This document shows positions 6,533-10,943 of a DNA stretch of 16,956 bases, piece after piece (position 1 is the stretch's first letter; every line of letters starts with the position of its first letter). This DNA is from a virus (lineage: Duplodnaviria > Heunggongvirae > Uroviricota > Caudoviricetes), in IMG/VR virus record IMGVR_UViG_2740892218_000013, positions 1-16,956 of that record. One strand, given 5' to 3'. The notes beneath the pieces are model-generated. The model was not told where the DNA came from. It was given only the letters and a program-made list of their open reading frames with translations, and ran no database searches. The translations under genes and the position numbers were made by a program.

Positions 6533-6985
6533 ATGGATTTAAGTAAATTAGAAAGCTCTTTAGAAGCATCAGTAAAAAATTTTATATCAGTAATTGATGA
6601 AAAAACTGAAGATATTAAGAAAGCAAATATTGTCGAACTTGTAAAAACAAGAGCCAGTACATTTGATCATCTTCCTGATGATGTCCGGTCAGCGGCAATT
6701 CACGTATATGTAACGGCACTAAGCAATATTGAACCCCCAATTGATGAAGAATCAAGAGATATTCAGAAAAAACGGTTCGAGATGTTAGCCAGCAACATTA
6801 TCGCTGGTTTCACACGGCTCTTAACAAAAAAGCCTGCCAGTGAGGCTGTTCGCCAGCAGGCTCAGGTAATGATTAATCAGGCAGAAACTATTTCACGTGA
6901 GCGAAAAGCATTTGATAAATCGGTTTCTGAACTTCCAACACCTCAACCGCAGCCGCTGAACCTTCCTTCTCAACAAACTGAATAA
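6533..6985 (+). CDS. Hypothetical protein, 150 aa, AT-rich, translationally coupled to N
   Basis: ATG at 6533 three nt after the N stop, with GAGGT SD; first ~200 bp strongly AT-rich; no motif recognised; 3' end overlaps a convergent ORF. Confidence 0.5.
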   Translation: MDLSKLESSLEASVKNFISVIDEKTEDIKKANIVELVKTRASTFDHLPDDVRSAAIHVYVTALSNIEPPIDEESRDIQKKRFEMLASNIIAGFTRLLTKKPASEAVRQQAQVMINQAETISRERKAFDKSVSELPTPQPQPLNLPSQQTE

Positions 6986-7142
6986 CTTCATCAAGATTCT
7001 TTTTTGCATGTGATGATTGCTCAGGTGGCATAGCAGAAACAATCGAAATGATTGCTTGCTGGAGCGCGAGGTTTTCAGTGCTCAGTTTTGAAACTCTGTT
7101 GTTTAAATCCTCAATGATTTTAACAAGAGATACATCTGACAT
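6888..7142 (-). CDS. Hypothetical protein, 84 aa, antisense to the pL operon
   Basis: ATG at 7140-7142 with AAGGAG 5 nt upstream; predicted helical (LNNRVSKLSTENLALQQAI); overlaps the 3' end of the 6533-6985 ORF by 98 bp. Confidence 0.4.
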   Translation of the reverse strand: MSDVSLVKIIEDLNNRVSKLSTENLALQQAIISIVSAMPPEQSSHAKKNLDEVIQFVEKEGSAAAVEVLEVQKPIYQMLFAHVK

Positions 7143-7153
7143 GTGAACTCCTT

Positions 7154-7203
7154 CTTTTGACTGTGGAAACAACAGTCTACCCATTTCCTTTGACTGTGGA
7201 AAG
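7154..7203. repeat. Two direct copies of a 16-bp motif, 34 bp apart, in the intergenic region
   Basis: CTTTTGACTGTGGAAA at 7154-7169 and CCTTTGACTGTGGAAA at 7188-7203 (15 of 16 identical), between the minus-strand ORF start and the 7282 gene. Confidence 0.6.
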
Positions 7204-7281: not shown

Positions 7282-7731
7282 ATGGAAGAACAAGCAAACA
7301 AGATTCTCGTAGAACTACTGCAAAAAGCCAGTAATGGAATAGACGCGGCTGTTTCATTTAGCCAGGCACAGATTCCTGATGTTGTTCATCAGTTGCTGCT
7401 ATGGAATATGGTTGACAGTCTGATTAAAACATTAATAGCCATTCTAACAATCCCACTGGTTTTCTGGTTTATGAAGAAGCAGTGCCAAAGAGTTGAGATA
7501 GGTAAAATCGGTAATGAAGGATATTCATGGGAGAAGGGAAATCCCAAATACAGGCCGACAATGGTTTGGGATAGCAAAGGTGATATTAATCTTCTTATCA
7601 TGCCATTGGTTGGAGTTTTGACTCTGTGGGGGATTTTTATTATTGGTGCAGTAACCAATATGACTTGGTTAAAAATTTGGCTGGCTCCAAAGCTTTACCT
7701 TATCGAATATGCAGCATCATTGGTTAAGTAA
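7282..7731 (+). CDS. Multi-pass inner-membrane protein, 149 aa; candidate superinfection-exclusion protein
   Basis: AAGGTGA SD; two or three hydrophobic helices; followed by a terminator; lies where lambda has sieB. No sequence identity recognised. Confidence 0.55.
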   Translation: MEEQANKILVELLQKASNGIDAAVSFSQAQIPDVVHQLLLWNMVDSLIKTLIAILTIPLVFWFMKKQCQRVEIGKIGNEGYSWEKGNPKYRPTMVWDSKGDINLLIMPLVGVLTLWGIFIIGAVTNMTWLKIWLAPKLYLIEYAASLVK

Positions 7732-7736
7732 TTTCA

Positions 7737-7764
7737 GGCCGCATAGTCGGCCTTTATTTTTGGC
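7737..7764 (+). terminator. Rho-independent terminator
   Basis: Stem AGGCCG (7737-7742) / CGGCCT (7749-7754), loop CATAGT, then TTATTTTTGG. Confidence 0.55.
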
Positions 7765-7880
7765 ATAAACAACAGAATAAATACTGCACTGTGTATTCAT
7801 TCCGACGAGTGAATACACGGAGCAATGTCGCTCGTAACTAAACAGGAGCCGACTTGTTCTGATTATTGGAAATCTTCTTT

Positions 7881-7907
7881 GCCCTCCAGTGTGAGGGCGA
7901 TTTTTTT
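7881..7907 (+). terminator. Rho-independent terminator immediately upstream of the 7920 gene's SD
   Basis: Stem GCCCTC (7881-7886) / GAGGGC (7893-7898), loop CAGTGT, then GATTTTTTT; GGAGGA SD follows directly. Confidence 0.55.
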
Positions 7908-7919
7908 GATGGAGGATAT

Positions 7920-8888
7920 ATGAGTGAAGTAACAGACTTAGTTGTTATTGAAAAAGCAAATGCAATGACTGTATTTCAGTCTGCAGACCAGATTGAAGAA
8001 ATCCTTCAAAAGGTTGAACGTGAAGTTATGTCCTTTGTGCCTGATATCACAACGGCAAAGGGCAGAAAGGAGATCGCTTCTCTGGCGTATAAAGTTGCGC
8101 AGACGAAAACATATCTCGATGGTCTTGGCAAAGACCTTGTTGCTGAACTGAAGGAAATTCCAAAGCTAATTGATGCCAACCGCAAGACAGTGCGCGATCG
8201 CCTTGATGAACTGAAAGCCAAGGCGCGCCAGCCTCTTACTGATTATGAGGAAGAACAGGCGCGGATTAAAGCCGAAGAAGAAGCTAAGGCAGCAGCTGAA
8301 GCTCTCGCAAAGCAAATTGAGTCTGACCATGAAATAGCTATTTTGATGGATCGCGAATTTGACCGCCAAAGAGAAGAGGCAAGACTCAAAGCGGAGCAGG
8401 AAAAGCGAGAGCATGAAGAACGATTAAAAAGAGAAGCTGAAGAGAAAGCCAGAGCAGAAGCCGAAGCAAAGGCAAAAGCCGAAATTGAAGCAGCAGCAAG
8501 GCGAGAAGCAGAAGCTAAGGCCGCAGCGGAACGTGCAGAGCGTGAACGCATTGAAGCCGAGCAACGAGCACAGCGCGAAGCAAAAGAGGCAGCAGAACGA
8601 GCTGAAAGAGAAAAGCAGGCAGCAATTGAAGCAGAACGCAGAAAAGCACAGGAGGAGGCTGAACGAATCCGTCGCGAGGCTGAAGCAAAAGAGCAAGCCA
8701 GAATAGCAGAAGAAAAAAGAATCAAGGACGAAGAAGATCGTAGAGCAAAGGATAAAGCTCACCGGAAAGAAGTAAATAACAAAATACTTGCTGACCTTAT
8801 CAAGGTTGGCGCATCAGAAGATGTTGCTAAAAATATCATAACAGCCATCGTAAAAGGCGAAGTATTCGCAACAAAAATAACCTACTAA
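7920..8888 (+). CDS. Coiled-coil protein, 322 aa, with long E/A/K/R-rich central repeat region
   Basis: ATG at 7920 after GGAGGA. Globular N-terminal ~110 aa, ~170 aa of EAKA/REAE-type repeats, short conserved C-terminal tail. Function unknown; sits just upstream of cIII. Confidence 0.65.
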   Translation: MSEVTDLVVIEKANAMTVFQSADQIEEILQKVEREVMSFVPDITTAKGRKEIASLAYKVAQTKTYLDGLGKDLVAELKEIPKLIDANRKTVRDRLDELKAKARQPLTDYEEEQARIKAEEEAKAAAEALAKQIESDHEIAILMDREFDRQREEARLKAEQEKREHEERLKREAEEKARAEAEAKAKAEIEAAARREAEAKAAAERAERERIEAEQRAQREAKEAAERAEREKQAAIEAERRKAQEEAERIRREAEAKEQARIAEEKRIKDEEDRRAKDKAHRKEVNNKILADLIKVGASEDVAKNIITAIVKGEVFATKITY

Positions 8889-8912: not shown

Positions 8913-9059
8913 ATGATTTACGCAATCGCGGGAGGCGCTCGCATGGGTGCCTTCCAATTAAATGAATCTTTACTTGAACGAATCACCCGTAAATTACGTG
9001 ACGGATGGAAACGACTCATCGACGTACTTAATCAGCCAGGATTTCCAAAAAATGGATAA
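8913..9059 (+). CDS. cIII: CIII (protects CII from FtsH), 48 aa
   Basis: Not in the ORF track. AAGGAA SD 6 nt upstream; translation MIYAIAGGARMGAFQLNESLLERITRKLRDGWKRLIDVLNQPGFPKNG matches the lambda CIII core (ESLLERITRKLRDGWKRLIDILNQPG) as recalled. Confidence 0.85.
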   Translation: MIYAIAGGARMGAFQLNESLLERITRKLRDGWKRLIDVLNQPGFPKNG

Positions 9060-9358: not shown

Positions 9359-10039
9359 ATGGGAACTGCAACATTAATACTCGGTGAGTCTGGCACCGGA
9401 AAATCAACCAGCATGAGAAATATCAATCCAGAGGAAGCAATACTTATAAAACCAATAGGCAAGCCGCTACCATTTAAATCAAAAGACTGGCTGGCATGGG
9501 ATGCCAGAGCAAAAAAAGGAACCGTAGTTACCACTGACAAATGGGATGTAATAGTTGCCGTAATTAAGCGTGCTCACGAATACGGGAAAAGAATCGTTAT
9601 TGTTGATGACTTCCAGTATGTGATGAGCAATGAGTTTATGCGCCGCTCAGAAGAAAAATCGTTTGATAAATTCACTGAGATAGGCCGTCACGCATGGGAG
9701 GTCATTAAGGCTGCACAAGATGCACCTGATGACCTGAGAGTCTATTTTCTTGCGCACACCGAAGAAACCCCTATGGGGCGCGTGAAAATGAAAACTATCG
9801 GCAAAATGCTGGACGAGAAGATCACTGTTGAAGGCATGTTTACTATAGTTCTTCGCACCCTTACCCGTGATGACCAGTTCTTTTTCACCACGAAAAACAA
9901 CGGTGCAGACACTGTTAAATCCCCAATGGGAATGTTTGATTCCAATGAGATTGATAACGATCTCTCTTTCGTCGATGCCACTGTTTGTGATTACTACGGC
10001 ATCAATAATGTTCATCAAATTAAGGAAAACGCCGCATGA
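9359..10039 (+). CDS. Sak4-type RecA-like ATPase (phage single-strand annealing recombinase family), 226 aa
   Basis: Walker A GESGTGKST near the N-terminus, Walker B IVIVDD, ~225 aa core-only size; lies where lambda has bet/exo. Confidence 0.7.
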   Translation: MGTATLILGESGTGKSTSMRNINPEEAILIKPIGKPLPFKSKDWLAWDARAKKGTVVTTDKWDVIVAVIKRAHEYGKRIVIVDDFQYVMSNEFMRRSEEKSFDKFTEIGRHAWEVIKAAQDAPDDLRVYFLAHTEETPMGRVKMKTIGKMLDEKITVEGMFTIVLRTLTRDDQFFFTTKNNGADTVKSPMGMFDSNEIDNDLSFVDATVCDYYGINNVHQIKENAA

Positions 10040-10623
10040 GCAACGTAATTTTTACTTATAACGAAGAAGCAGCACTGACCGCAGGGCAAGGTGGTTTTAT
10101 TAACGAAACTGGCGCTCATATCATTACCATTACTGAAGCAGAACTAAAGCAATCAGAAAAAGGCGCAAAATTTATTGAGTTTTCTGGCGAATCCGACGAC
10201 GGACGTAAAATACAATATCTTAGCGTTTGTGTTCAGAAAAATGACGGAACGGAAAACAAATTTGGCGCAAATGTCGTTCACGCCATGATGGGGTGTGCCG
10301 GTATTGGACAATTAACGCAACATATGGTTTCCGCCAGTAAATTTGTTGCACCTGAATTTCATGGAAAGAAAATCGGGTTAGTGCTCCAGAAAGTATTAAC
10401 CACAAACAAAAAGACTGGCGCAGACAGCTACCAGATGGAAATACGCATCCCGTTTATTGCACAAACAGGTCAAACCCTTAAAGAAAAGGCGGAAGGCAAG
10501 CAACCAGAAACTATCGCCAACATGGTTGCCAGCCTCAAAGATAAAGACAATCGCTCTAAAAACGTAAGCCAGAATCATGCAGATGATTATGGTTACAGCC
10601 AGAACGATTACCCTCCTTTCTGA
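10036..10623 (+). CDS. Putative ssDNA-binding protein partner of Sak4, 195 aa, with SSB-like acidic tail ending in Phe
   Basis: Translationally coupled to the Sak4-like gene (ATGA overlap). C-terminus ...HADDYGYSQNDYPPF resembles the SSB and T7 gp2.5 acidic tail with terminal aromatic residue. OB fold not verifiable by eye. Confidence 0.4.
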   Translation: MSNVIFTYNEEAALTAGQGGFINETGAHIITITEAELKQSEKGAKFIEFSGESDDGRKIQYLSVCVQKNDGTENKFGANVVHAMMGCAGIGQLTQHMVSASKFVAPEFHGKKIGLVLQKVLTTNKKTGADSYQMEIRIPFIAQTGQTLKEKAEGKQPETIANMVASLKDKDNRSKNVSQNHADDYGYSQNDYPPF

Positions 10624-10646
10624 TTACTGAAAATAAGGCTCCCATT

Positions 10647-10943
10647 ATGCCAGCGCCTCTGTATGGTGCGGATGACCCGCGCAACTGCTCCGGTAGCTCC
10701 AAGGCGGAGGTGCTGGAAAATATCAAAAACAATTTCGACGCGTTTCTTGCTCTGACGCCAGAAACAAAAGCAGAACGGATGTACCGACGCGATATACAAC
10801 TCGCGCTAAAACAGGAGAAGGACCGAACAAACGAAACAGCAATGAGACCGTTGCGAAAAGCGACAATAGACAAATTCCCTGAATATATCGACCCGCGCCT
10901 GCGTAATTACCGCTCACGCTATGGCGCTATCAGTAATGACTGA
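10647..10943 (+). CDS. Hypothetical protein, 98 aa
   Basis: ORF in operon orientation with an upstream purine-rich tract; no motif recognised. Confidence 0.45.

What the first reader, a model, noticed from the sequence alone, without database searches (positions are those of the whole stretch)
7920..8888. 322-aa protein with ~170-residue E/A/K/R-rich coiled-coil repeat between conserved end domains
The central region is built from imperfect EAKA/REAE-type repeats reminiscent of TolA domain II. The repetitive DNA produces artefactual opposite-strand ORFs. The gene sits between two terminators directly upstream of cIII, where lambda has the small ea10 gene. I do not recognise it.
Basis: partly seen in the sequence, partly recalled or inferred. 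Interest (0 to 1): 0.45.

Follow-up and report, generated by a model that had tools for sequence, protein, structure and literature searches.

The report
Known phage rod protein, mislabelled TolA
This is a real but already catalogued early gene of lambda-like phages (Sf6 gene 33, phi80 agt) that makes a long helical rod protein, is wrongly named TolA in databases, and usually sits beside phage DNA-recombination genes, but its function has never been properly tested.

Summary
The ORF is real: 7920-8888 (+), 322 aa, GGAGGA ribosome-binding site, 78% E/A/R/K over residues 111-290. It is not new. It is about 98% identical to Shigella phage Sf6 gene 33. It occurs in about 10% of complete E. coli genomes. 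It is a full-length homologue (51% identity, both 322 aa) of phi80 agt, annotated "anti-toxin for Gam / Mog". The database name "TolA" is a composition artefact: 9.4 bits against a 59.45-bit cutoff, and no membrane anchor. The family is very large, at least 4,910 clusters at 50% identity, with no Pfam model and no structural match. Architecture: a conserved basic helical N-domain, a variable-length helical spacer built from degenerate 11-residue repeats (not heptads), and a small conserved C-domain. Across Proteobacteria the gene lies beside recombination modules of every annealing-protein type (Erf, RecT/Bet, Sak4), sometimes directly upstream of Gam. My best reading is an accessory rod-shaped adaptor of the phage recombination and DNA-end module. 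The mechanism is inferred, not shown. This window has Abc2 but no Gam. HK620 has the same Sak4 module without this gene. Both terminators lie upstream of the gene, not on either side. Interest is low to moderate.

The parts
7736..7753 (+). Terminator-like hairpin followed by a T-run, after the upstream 149-aa membrane-protein gene
   Evidence: mEp234 has an annotated rho-independent terminator at the equivalent place.
7879..7900 (+). Terminator-like hairpin followed by a T-run, immediately upstream of the gene; equivalent to tL2A of Sf6 and HK620
   Evidence: Sf6 annotates 'tL2A' just before gene 33. HK620 has tL2A and tL2B directly before cIII with no gene between them.
7911..7916 (+). Shine-Dalgarno sequence GGAGGA, 3 nt before the ATG
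   Evidence: Read from the sequence.
7920..7922 (+). ATG start codon; homologues begin with the same MSEVTDL
7920..8888 (+). Coding sequence, 322 aa: homologue of Sf6 gene 33, phi80 Agt (Mog) and D3 Orf53; PHROG 1376
7920..8264 (+). Conserved N-terminal domain (aa 1-115): two short helices (12-20, 22-37) packed on the start of a very long helix that begins at residue 46. Motif PD.sT.KGR..iAS.A.KVa.sKT.lD..GK....K...K.ID..R...R..LD.L....R.PLT.wE.
   Evidence: Alignments. This domain alone finds 4,910 cluster representatives at E<=1e-3. AF2 pLDDT 92.5.
8250..8789 (+). Central E/A/R/K-rich helical spacer (aa 111-290); holds all in-frame length polymorphism
8499..8729 (+). Core of about 7 degenerate 11-residue (33-nt) repeats, aa 194-270 (RREAEAKAAAE / RAERERIEAEQ / RAQREAKEAAE / RAEREKQAAIE ...)
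   Evidence: lag 11, 22 and 33 autocorrelation; DNA identity 0.46-0.48 at lags 33, 66 and 99. (3.67-residue periodicity). One homologue differs by exactly one 11-aa unit and another by 22 aa.
8754..8885 (+). Small conserved C-terminal domain (aa 279-322): HRk.vN....a.L...G.....AK..i.AI..G.i....I.Y
   Evidence: AF2 predicts helix 300-311 followed by an extended C-terminus.
8913..9059 (+). cIII, the downstream neighbour in every near-identical copy examined
   Evidence: Pfam Lambda_CIII E 1.6e-23. cIII follows the gene in 70 of 70 IMG/VR copies with enough downstream DNA.
8243..8762 (-). Artefactual low-complexity ORFs on the opposite strand (8243-8725, 160 aa; 8424-8762, 112 aa), produced by the GAA/GCA-rich repeat DNA
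   Evidence: their translations are S/A/C/F/L-rich low complexity. Conservation across taxa follows the + strand frame.

Best explanation
The ORF is a genuine delayed-early gene of the pL operon of a lambdoid (P22/Sf6-like) prophage. It encodes a soluble, cytoplasmic, almost entirely alpha-helical rod-like protein of the Sf6 gp33 / phi80 Agt (Mog) / D3 Orf53 family. It is not TolA.

Shown here: three parts. (1) A strongly conserved N-terminal helical domain; 8 of its 26 most conserved positions are Lys or Arg. (2) A spacer of degenerate 11-residue Ala/Glu/Arg/Lys repeats whose length varies in frame between alleles. (3) A roughly 40-residue conserved C-terminal domain.

Inferred: it acts as an accessory adaptor of the phage recombination and DNA-end-handling module. 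The N-domain would bind a very widely conserved target, either DNA itself or a universal host DNA-metabolism factor. The C-domain would bind or oligomerise with a second partner. The repeat helix would set the distance between them. Its net effect would be to protect or organise phage DNA ends and recombination intermediates, or to temper the host-toxic RecBCD modulators encoded alongside it (GamL in phi80, Abc2 here). It is dispensable for core recombinase function.
For: Identity and reality. The DNA is about 98% identical to Sf6 gene 33, and the N-terminal domain is 100% identical. It matches PHROG 1376 at E 2e-110. It is 51% identical over the full length to phi80 PHI80_40 (E 2e-64). That record annotates the gene as 'agt, anti-toxin for Gam; Mog (modifier of Gam)' and the next gene as 'gamL, toxic without Mog'. 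The N- and C-domains are conserved down to about 30-40% identity in Pseudomonas, Vibrio, Methylococcaceae and alpha- and delta-proteobacterial prophages.

Synteny. The gene lies next to Erf plus exonuclease in D3, after recombinase plus SSB in a Vibrio phage, and before GamL-Bet/RecT-Exo in phi80 and a Klebsiella phage. It lies directly before GamL in locus L095 and before a lambda-type Gam in L099. In 29 diverse genome loci with downstream DNA, the next 4 ORFs are dominated by Erf, RecT/Bet, Sak4, SSB and RecE/Cas4/YqaJ-type exonucleases. At least 18 loci are identified by phmmer alone, and more by PHROGs.

Positional parallel. In Firmicutes phages the equivalent slot next to erf, sak4 and recT is filled by Mu-Gam-like, DUF1351, DUF2483 or Gp157 genes, which the authors consider analogous in function (PMC8093625).

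Architecture. AF2 predicts an all-helical protein (pLDDT 84.9 for the whole protein, 92.5 for the N-domain). The spacer shows hendecad periodicity and twice the expected number of i/i+4 salt bridges. All indels fall in the spacer. There is no membrane segment.
Against: No biochemical or genetic data for this family could be read here. The phi80 claim rests on a GenBank annotation, and the source paper (Rotman et al. 2012, PMC3510586) is not held.

This window has no Gam. HK620 carries the same cIII-kil-hkaM-Sak4-SSB-abc2 module without this gene, so the gene is not required by that module.

Near-identical copies sit in front of at least four different recombination modules and are always tied to cIII rather than to a particular recombinase. 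In lambdoid phages, adjacency could therefore reflect shared operon position rather than shared function. No control for the background rate of recombination genes near other early genes was run.

No fold or profile match supports DNA binding or any other activity. The global shape (hairpin or extended rod) is unresolved: pTM is 0.35, and homologue models superpose at 80-100 A rmsd.
Confidence: 0.45

Rival explanations
1. It is a dedicated antidote to a RecBCD inhibitor, as annotated for phi80. It binds and tempers Gam (here it would have to be Abc2), so the phage can express the inhibitor without killing the host too early.
For: The phi80 record calls it 'anti-toxin for Gam / Mog' and calls gamL 'toxic without Mog'. 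Homologues sit 2-8 bp upstream of two unrelated Gam families, GamL and lambda Gam. Abc2 lies downstream in 65 of 70 near-identical copies and in this window.
Against: There is no Gam in this window and Gam in only 1 of 70 close copies. In D3, Vibrio and most distant loci BLAST found neither Gam nor Abc2. The N-domain is far more conserved across phyla than a partner of fast-evolving small phage inhibitors would be expected to be. HK620 carries Abc2 without this gene.
Confidence: 0.15
2. It is a moron-type accessory gene unrelated to recombination, for example a superinfection-exclusion, anti-defence or host-takeover factor. It simply rides in the variable N-to-cIII segment of the pL operon.
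For: The N-cIII interval is a mosaic hot spot holding ral, sieB, ea10 and membrane proteins. The gene is present or absent among otherwise similar phages. It is preceded by terminators and by the 'boundary sequence' bsq4 annotated in Sf6.
Against: There is no PADLOC hit. Outside lambdoid phages, where there is no N-cIII slot, it still abuts SSAP, SSB or exonuclease genes, often with overlapping or nearly abutting ORFs.
Confidence: 0.2
3. It is a TolA-like cell-envelope protein, as NCBI names it. It would span or act in the envelope, perhaps mimicking TolA domain II.
For: PGAP and UniRef name it 'cell envelope biogenesis protein TolA'. Its composition resembles TolA domain II.
Against: TIGR02794 tolA_full scores 9.4 bits against a cutoff of 59.45. 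No segment is hydrophobic enough for a membrane anchor or signal peptide (max KD19 1.03). There is no TolA C-terminal domain or any Pfam hit. The gene sits in a prophage early operon, not in tol-pal.
Confidence: 0.02
4. It is not a real gene: a long ORF created by chance in low-complexity repeat DNA.
For: Repeat DNA does create several spurious ORFs here in other frames.
Against: It has a strong RBS. The non-repetitive N- and C-domains are conserved in thousands of clusters across phyla, always in this frame and orientation. All indels are in frame.
Confidence: 0.01

Closest known systems
phi80 (Lula) Agt / Mog, PHI80_40 (AFV29176), annotated 'anti-toxin for Gam'
   Same: Both are 322 aa. They are 51% identical end to end (E 2e-64), with the same N-domain, repeat spacer and C-terminal ...I.Y domain. 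Both lie in the pL operon upstream of the recombination genes.
   Different: In phi80 the gene directly precedes gamL-recT-exo. Here it precedes cIII-kil-hkaM-Sak4-SSB-Abc2, and there is no Gam. The experimental basis of the phi80 annotation could not be read.
Shigella phage Sf6 gene 33 protein (AAQ12223), also CUS-3, HK633, mEp213/234/043, IME10 'Orf53' and Pseudomonas D3 Orf53; PHROG 1376
   Same: This is essentially the same gene. The DNA is about 98% identical. It holds the same position after tL2A and before cIII.
   Different: Only the downstream recombination module differs: Erf-SSB in Sf6 and Sak4-SSB here. No function is assigned in any of these records.
TolA domain II (E. coli cell-envelope protein)
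   Same: An Ala/Glu/Lys-rich, long helical, repetitive segment.
   Different: No homology (9.4 bits against a cutoff of 59.45). No membrane anchor. No domain III. Cytoplasmic phage context.
The accessory slot of SSAP modules in Firmicutes phages: DUF1351 (PF07083), Gp157, DUF2483 and Mu-Gam-like genes (Steczkiewicz et al. 2021, PMC8093625)
   Same: The gene lies next to erf, sak4 or recT whichever annealing-protein family is present. This is the behaviour seen for the present family in Proteobacteria.
   Different: No detectable sequence relationship. PF07083 is not hit even at E<=10 for the N-domain or E<=1 for 26 diverse members. Function is unknown for DUF1351 too, so the analogy is positional only.
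Lambda Ea10
   Same: Occupies the slot immediately upstream of cIII in the pL operon.
   Different: It is an unrelated 122-aa protein. Some phages carry both ea10 and this gene, so the two are not simple alternatives.

Membership tests
TolA (TIGR02794 tolA_full) | Score above the curated cutoff of the family HMM | tested here: not met
   9.4 bits, E 0.54, against a cutoff of 59.45 bits. The match covers only the low-complexity region 89-245.
TolA (TIGR02794 tolA_full) | N-terminal transmembrane anchor (domain I) | tested here: not met
   The highest Kyte-Doolittle 19-residue mean is 1.03, at residue 293. The N-terminus scores 0.8. The neighbouring true membrane protein scores 2.4.
TolA (TIGR02794 tolA_full) | C-terminal globular domain III and the tol-pal operon context | tested here: not met
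   No Pfam family hits the C-terminal 52 aa or the whole protein. The neighbours are N, cIII, kil, Sak4 and SSB of a prophage.
Sf6 gp33 / phi80 Agt (Mog) / D3 Orf53 family (PHROG 1376) | Full-length sequence similarity to named members | tested here: met
   PHROG 1376 E 2e-110 over residues 1-322. About 98% DNA identity to Sf6 gene 33. 51% identity and E 2e-64 to phi80 Agt.
Sf6 gp33 / phi80 Agt (Mog) / D3 Orf53 family (PHROG 1376) | Conserved N-domain motif (R49, G70, K78, D85, R88, E110 and others) and the C-terminal HR..N...AK..I.AI..G.I....I.Y motif | tested here: met
   Invariant and near-invariant columns in alignments of 26-68 diverse members.
Sf6 gp33 / phi80 Agt (Mog) / D3 Orf53 family (PHROG 1376) | Location in the phage early operon beside recombination genes | tested here: met
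   In the window, Sak4, SSB and Abc2 start 470 bp downstream. The same holds in other members.
Sf6 gp33 / phi80 Agt (Mog) / D3 Orf53 family (PHROG 1376) | Neutralises the toxicity of the adjacent Gam (the only function claimed for any member) | not testable with these tools
   This is an annotation only, and the paper is not held. No Gam is encoded in the window.
DUF1351 (Pfam PF07083) | Match to the Pfam HMM | tested here: not met
   No hit at E<=10 for the N-domain or the whole protein. No hit at E<=1 for 26 diverse members or at E<=0.01 for 34 others. Profile-profile comparison against a DUF1351 alignment was not done, because no DUF1351 sequences could be obtained.
Canonical left-handed (heptad) coiled coil | 3.5-residue periodicity of hydrophobic core positions | tested here: not met
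   For residues 111-290, power at 3.5 has z = -0.2 to -0.9, while 3.67 (11/3) has z = 5.6-6.1. Only 8% of residues 165-290 are large hydrophobics. The N-domain helix 46-157 does show 3.5-3.6 periodicity (z about 5).
ER/K single alpha-helix (SAH) spacer | Excess of i to i+4 oppositely charged pairs and lack of a hydrophobic seam | tested here: inconclusive
   E/D to K/R pairs at i+4 number 28 against 14.2 +/- 2.7 expected. K/R to E/D pairs number 33 against 14.1 +/- 2.8. However, an Ala stripe with 11/3 periodicity is present and could mediate helix-helix packing.

The most novel reading that the evidence does not exclude
The family would be a universal accessory component of phage single-strand-annealing recombination modules in Gram-negative hosts, independent of recombinase type. 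It would be the counterpart of the DUF1351, Gp157 and Mu-Gam slot in Firmicutes phages. A rod-shaped protein would use a conserved basic N-domain to hold DNA ends or recombination intermediates, or a universal host DNA-metabolism factor. A repeat helix of tunable length would position a partner bound at the C-domain. This would define a new functional class, with no Pfam model, found in thousands of prophages.
Probability: 0.25. Interest if true: 0.55.

Novelty: already known. Interest (0 to 1): 0.28.

Why it matters
As a finding in this window it is ordinary. The same gene is in Sf6, CUS-3, the mEp and HK phages, and about one in ten complete E. coli genomes.

Two practical points follow. First, the widespread automatic name "cell envelope biogenesis protein TolA" is wrong and should not be propagated. 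The same applies to "tail fiber", "fibrinogen binding protein" and "ribosome recycling factor", which appear on homologues.

Second, this is a very large family, at least 4,910 clusters at 50% identity, with no Pfam model, no structural relative and a single untested functional label. It is persistently linked to phage recombination genes of every type. A simple genetic study in Sf6 or phi80 could assign a function to thousands of prophage genes. It might also explain how phages manage the toxicity or efficiency of their recombination and anti-RecBCD functions.

Tried and rejected
- Pfam on the whole protein, on the N- and C-domains separately, and on 34 plus 26 diverse homologues gave no family, including DUF1351 and TolA domains.
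- NCBIfam gave only sub-threshold low-complexity matches.
- PADLOC gave nothing.
- A PDB sequence search gave only coiled-coil noise, E>=0.028.
- Foldseek of the full AF2 model against PDB gave nothing at E<=0.001. Against BFVD it found only its own family.
- The afdb50 library was unavailable.
- The Rotman et al. 2012 phi80 genome paper, which is the source of agt/Mog, is not held under its DOI or its PMC id.
- Searches for 'modifier of Gam', 'gamL', 'phi80 agt' and 'Sf6 gp33' found nothing relevant.
- I looked for a Gram-positive DUF1351 example to run a profile-profile test. Staphylococcal phages 80alpha and phi12 have none annotated.
- Lactococcus r1t ORF9 lies upstream of RecT and has a similar length and a charged helical middle. 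It has no Pfam hit. It aligns to the family profile at only 14% hhalign probability. Its homologues are all at least 86% identical, so no better profile could be built. This was a dead end.
- Tandem Repeats Finder did not detect the 33-nt period. The repeat is visible only at the protein and autocorrelation level.
- The IMG/VR scan returned only near-identical copies. These were useful for mosaic context but not for diversity.

Full report
**What is there.** The window carries an ATG-initiated ORF at 7920-8888 on the + strand. It encodes 322 aa and is preceded by GGAGGA at 7911-7916. Residues 111-290 are 27% Glu, 24% Ala, 16% Arg and 11% Lys. The two ends have ordinary composition. Several other ORFs overlap the repeat DNA on the opposite strand and in other frames. 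Their translations are low-complexity Ser/Ala/Cys/Phe strings, and conservation in relatives follows only the + frame. The gene is followed 24 bases later by cIII (Pfam Lambda_CIII, E 1.6e-23). After cIII come kil, a 66-aa hkaM-like ORF, a Sak4-type annealing ATPase, an SSB and Abc2. An N-like antiterminator gene, a 150-aa ORF, a 98-aa ORF on the opposite strand and a 149-aa membrane protein lie upstream. This is the leftward early (pL) operon of a lambdoid, P22/Sf6-like prophage. Lambda has ea10 in the slot before cIII.

**Corrections to the observation.** The two terminator-like hairpins (7736-7753 and 7879-7900) are both upstream of the gene. Nothing terminator-like lies between its stop codon and cIII. 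Phage mEp234 is annotated the same way. In Sf6 the proximal hairpin is called tL2A. The repeats are degenerate. Tandem Repeats Finder sees only weak 6- and 15-nt arrays. At the protein level the period is 11 residues, with about seven units such as RAERERIEAEQ, RAQREAKEAAE and RAEREKQAAIE between residues 194 and 270. Identity autocorrelation gives z = 4.0-4.4 at lag 22 and z = 2.7 at lag 11. DNA identity rises to 0.46-0.48 at lags 33, 66 and 99. Ala and hydrophobic residues recur every 3.67 residues (z about 6) and not every 3.5 (z below 0). Opposite charges at i/i+4 are twice as frequent as expected. Only 8% of residues 165-290 are large hydrophobics. The middle is therefore a charged helix with an alanine stripe of hendecad periodicity, not a classical heptad coiled coil.

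**It is a known gene.** Megablast finds the region in 329 phage records. In Shigella phage Sf6 it is "gene 33 protein, similar to phage D3 Orf53". It is in 530 of 5,426 complete E. coli genomes. It belongs to PHROG 1376, function unknown. NCBI names it "cell envelope biogenesis protein TolA". That name does not hold up:
- The TolA model scores 9.4 bits against a 59.45-bit cutoff, and only over the low-complexity region.
- There is no hydrophobic anchor.
- There is no TolA C-domain.

Homologues elsewhere are labelled "tail fiber", "fibrinogen binding protein" or "ribosome recycling factor". These are equally spurious.

**The one functional label.** tblastn with the N-domain also hits phi80 gene agt (PHI80_40). 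It sits directly upstream of gamL, noted as "toxic without Mog", followed by recT and exo. The window protein and Agt are both 322 aa and are 51% identical end to end (E 2e-64). I could not read the source paper, so the strength of that claim is unknown.

**Family and architecture.** The N-terminal 115 residues alone retrieve 4,910 cluster representatives at E<=1e-3 from 1.84 billion, and 3,367 at E<=1e-10. The domain is always at the N-terminus of proteins mostly 250-430 aa long. Alignments of diverse members show three features:
- An N-domain with invariant or near-invariant T45, G48, R49, S54, K63, T64, D67, G70, K71, K78, K82, D85, R88, R92, D96, R103, P105, L106 and E110. Eight of the 26 most conserved positions are Lys or Arg.
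- A middle of variable length and content.
- A roughly 40-residue C-terminal motif, HR..vN....L...G.....AK..I.AI..G.I....I.Y.

**Context across relatives.** Outside the lambdoid N-cIII setting the gene still sits against recombination genes:
- In Pseudomonas D3 it overlaps an Erf gene that is followed by an exonuclease.
- In a Vibrio podophage it follows a recombinase and an SSB.
- In a Klebsiella phage it precedes GamL-Bet-Exo.
- In a Pseudescherichia prophage it lies 8 bp upstream of GamL.
- In a Raoultella prophage it lies 2 bp upstream of a lambda-type Gam.

In 29 diverse genome loci with downstream sequence, the four following ORFs are dominated by Erf, RecT/Bet, Sak4, SSB and RecE/Cas4/YqaJ-type exonucleases. 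Upstream genes are mostly repressors and regulators, with recombination genes in a few loci. A published survey of Firmicutes phages describes the same behaviour for DUF1351, Gp157, DUF2483 and Mu-Gam-like genes beside erf, sak4 and recT, and suggests these have analogous functions (PMC8093625). The present family shows no detectable sequence relation to DUF1351.

**Limits on the recombination link.** Seventy near-identical copies in IMG/VR are always followed by cIII. They then run into at least four different recombination modules: Erf+SSB in 28, Sak4+SSB in 6, RecT in 5, and an unidentified module in 31. Abc2 is present in 65 and Gam in only 1. HK620 has the same cIII-kil-hkaM-Sak4-SSB-abc2 block as this window, but its tL2A and tL2B terminators abut cIII with no gene 33. 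The gene is therefore a dispensable, mosaic accessory. It is not a fixed partner of Sak4, and here it cannot be a Gam antidote in the literal sense. I ran no matched control for how often any early gene lies near recombination genes.

**Most likely mechanism.** I commit to the following.
- Shown: it is a cytoplasmic helical protein with two conserved end domains and a repeat spacer of variable length.
- Inferred: transcription is from pL past N-antiterminated terminators.
- Inferred: it serves as an accessory adaptor in the phage recombination and DNA-end module. The unusually conserved, basic N-domain would bind DNA or a universal host DNA-metabolism factor. The C-domain would bind a second partner or mediate oligomerisation. 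The spacer would set their separation. The outcome would be protection or organisation of DNA ends, or moderation of host-toxic RecBCD modulators.

Confidence is about 0.45 for the general role and much lower for any specific step. The rivals are a dedicated Gam/Abc2 antidote (0.15), an unrelated moron such as an exclusion or anti-defence factor (0.2), a TolA-like envelope protein (0.02) and a non-gene (0.01).

**Verdict.** The residual interest is that a very large family linked to recombination genes has no Pfam model, no fold relative and essentially no experimental characterisation, and that its standard database name is wrong. Interest is 0.28.

Noticed in passing
window 9359-10943: The Sak4-like ATPase (9359-10039), SSB (10036-10623) and Abc2 (10647-10943) have the same sizes and order as HK620 hkaL, hkaK and hkaJ. 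The HK620 block also includes cIII, kil and the 66-aa hkaM-like ORF. HK620 lacks the 322-aa gene.
   Followed up: partly
window 7282-7731: A 149-aa predicted membrane protein (PHROG 3054, unknown function; KD19 maximum 2.4) ends at its own terminator-like hairpin (7736-7753). It looks like a self-contained moron, possibly a superinfection-exclusion candidate.
   Followed up: no
window 6533-7184: A 150-aa + strand ORF with no family hit (6533-6985) overlaps a 98-aa - strand ORF (6888-7184) by about 100 bp, tail to tail. The - strand ORF has a weak PADLOC 'control protein' hit (E 0.0024). The 150-aa ORF is unexplained.
   Followed up: no
L087 (JAFADF010000066.1, 3,856-bp contig): A contig binned as an 'Actinomycetes bacterium' MAG carries a 100% identical copy of this E. 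coli phage gene, followed by Erf and SSB. It is almost certainly a mis-binned or contaminant enterobacterial phage contig.
   Followed up: no
Phage records hit: Homologues of the N-domain are annotated as 'putative tail-fiber protein' (Iodobacter PhiPLPE gp77), 'fibrinogen binding protein' (Vibrio phage Seahorse), 'ribosome recycling factor' (Plectonema phage) and 'TolA'. These are a set of composition-driven misannotations.
   Followed up: partly
L123 4910-5743 (Lactococcus phage r1t ORF9): A 277-aa protein overlaps the start of RecT. It has a similar layout: a structured N-terminal part, a charged Q/E/K/R helical middle and a short C-terminal part. It has no Pfam hit. hhalign to the family profile gives only 14% probability, but 44% identity over 48 columns of the conserved N-domain motif. 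It may be a remote Gram-positive counterpart.
   Followed up: partly
A5 alignment columns about 230-300 (for example D3 L004:3489-4550 and L100, L113, L115): Many non-enterobacterial family members carry an extra helical insert of about 60-70 residues (consensus ...L.s.el...I..v..v.i.e.WeEf..eA...K..al..l...l) between the N-domain and the charged repeats. In enterobacterial members this is replaced by a short IESDHE.AlLMN..FDR segment.
   Followed up: no
window 7760-7860: The intergenic stretch between the two upstream terminators corresponds to the 'bsq4 boundary sequence' annotated in Sf6. This is a proposed mosaic recombination joint, which fits the gene plus cIII moving as a cassette.
   Followed up: no
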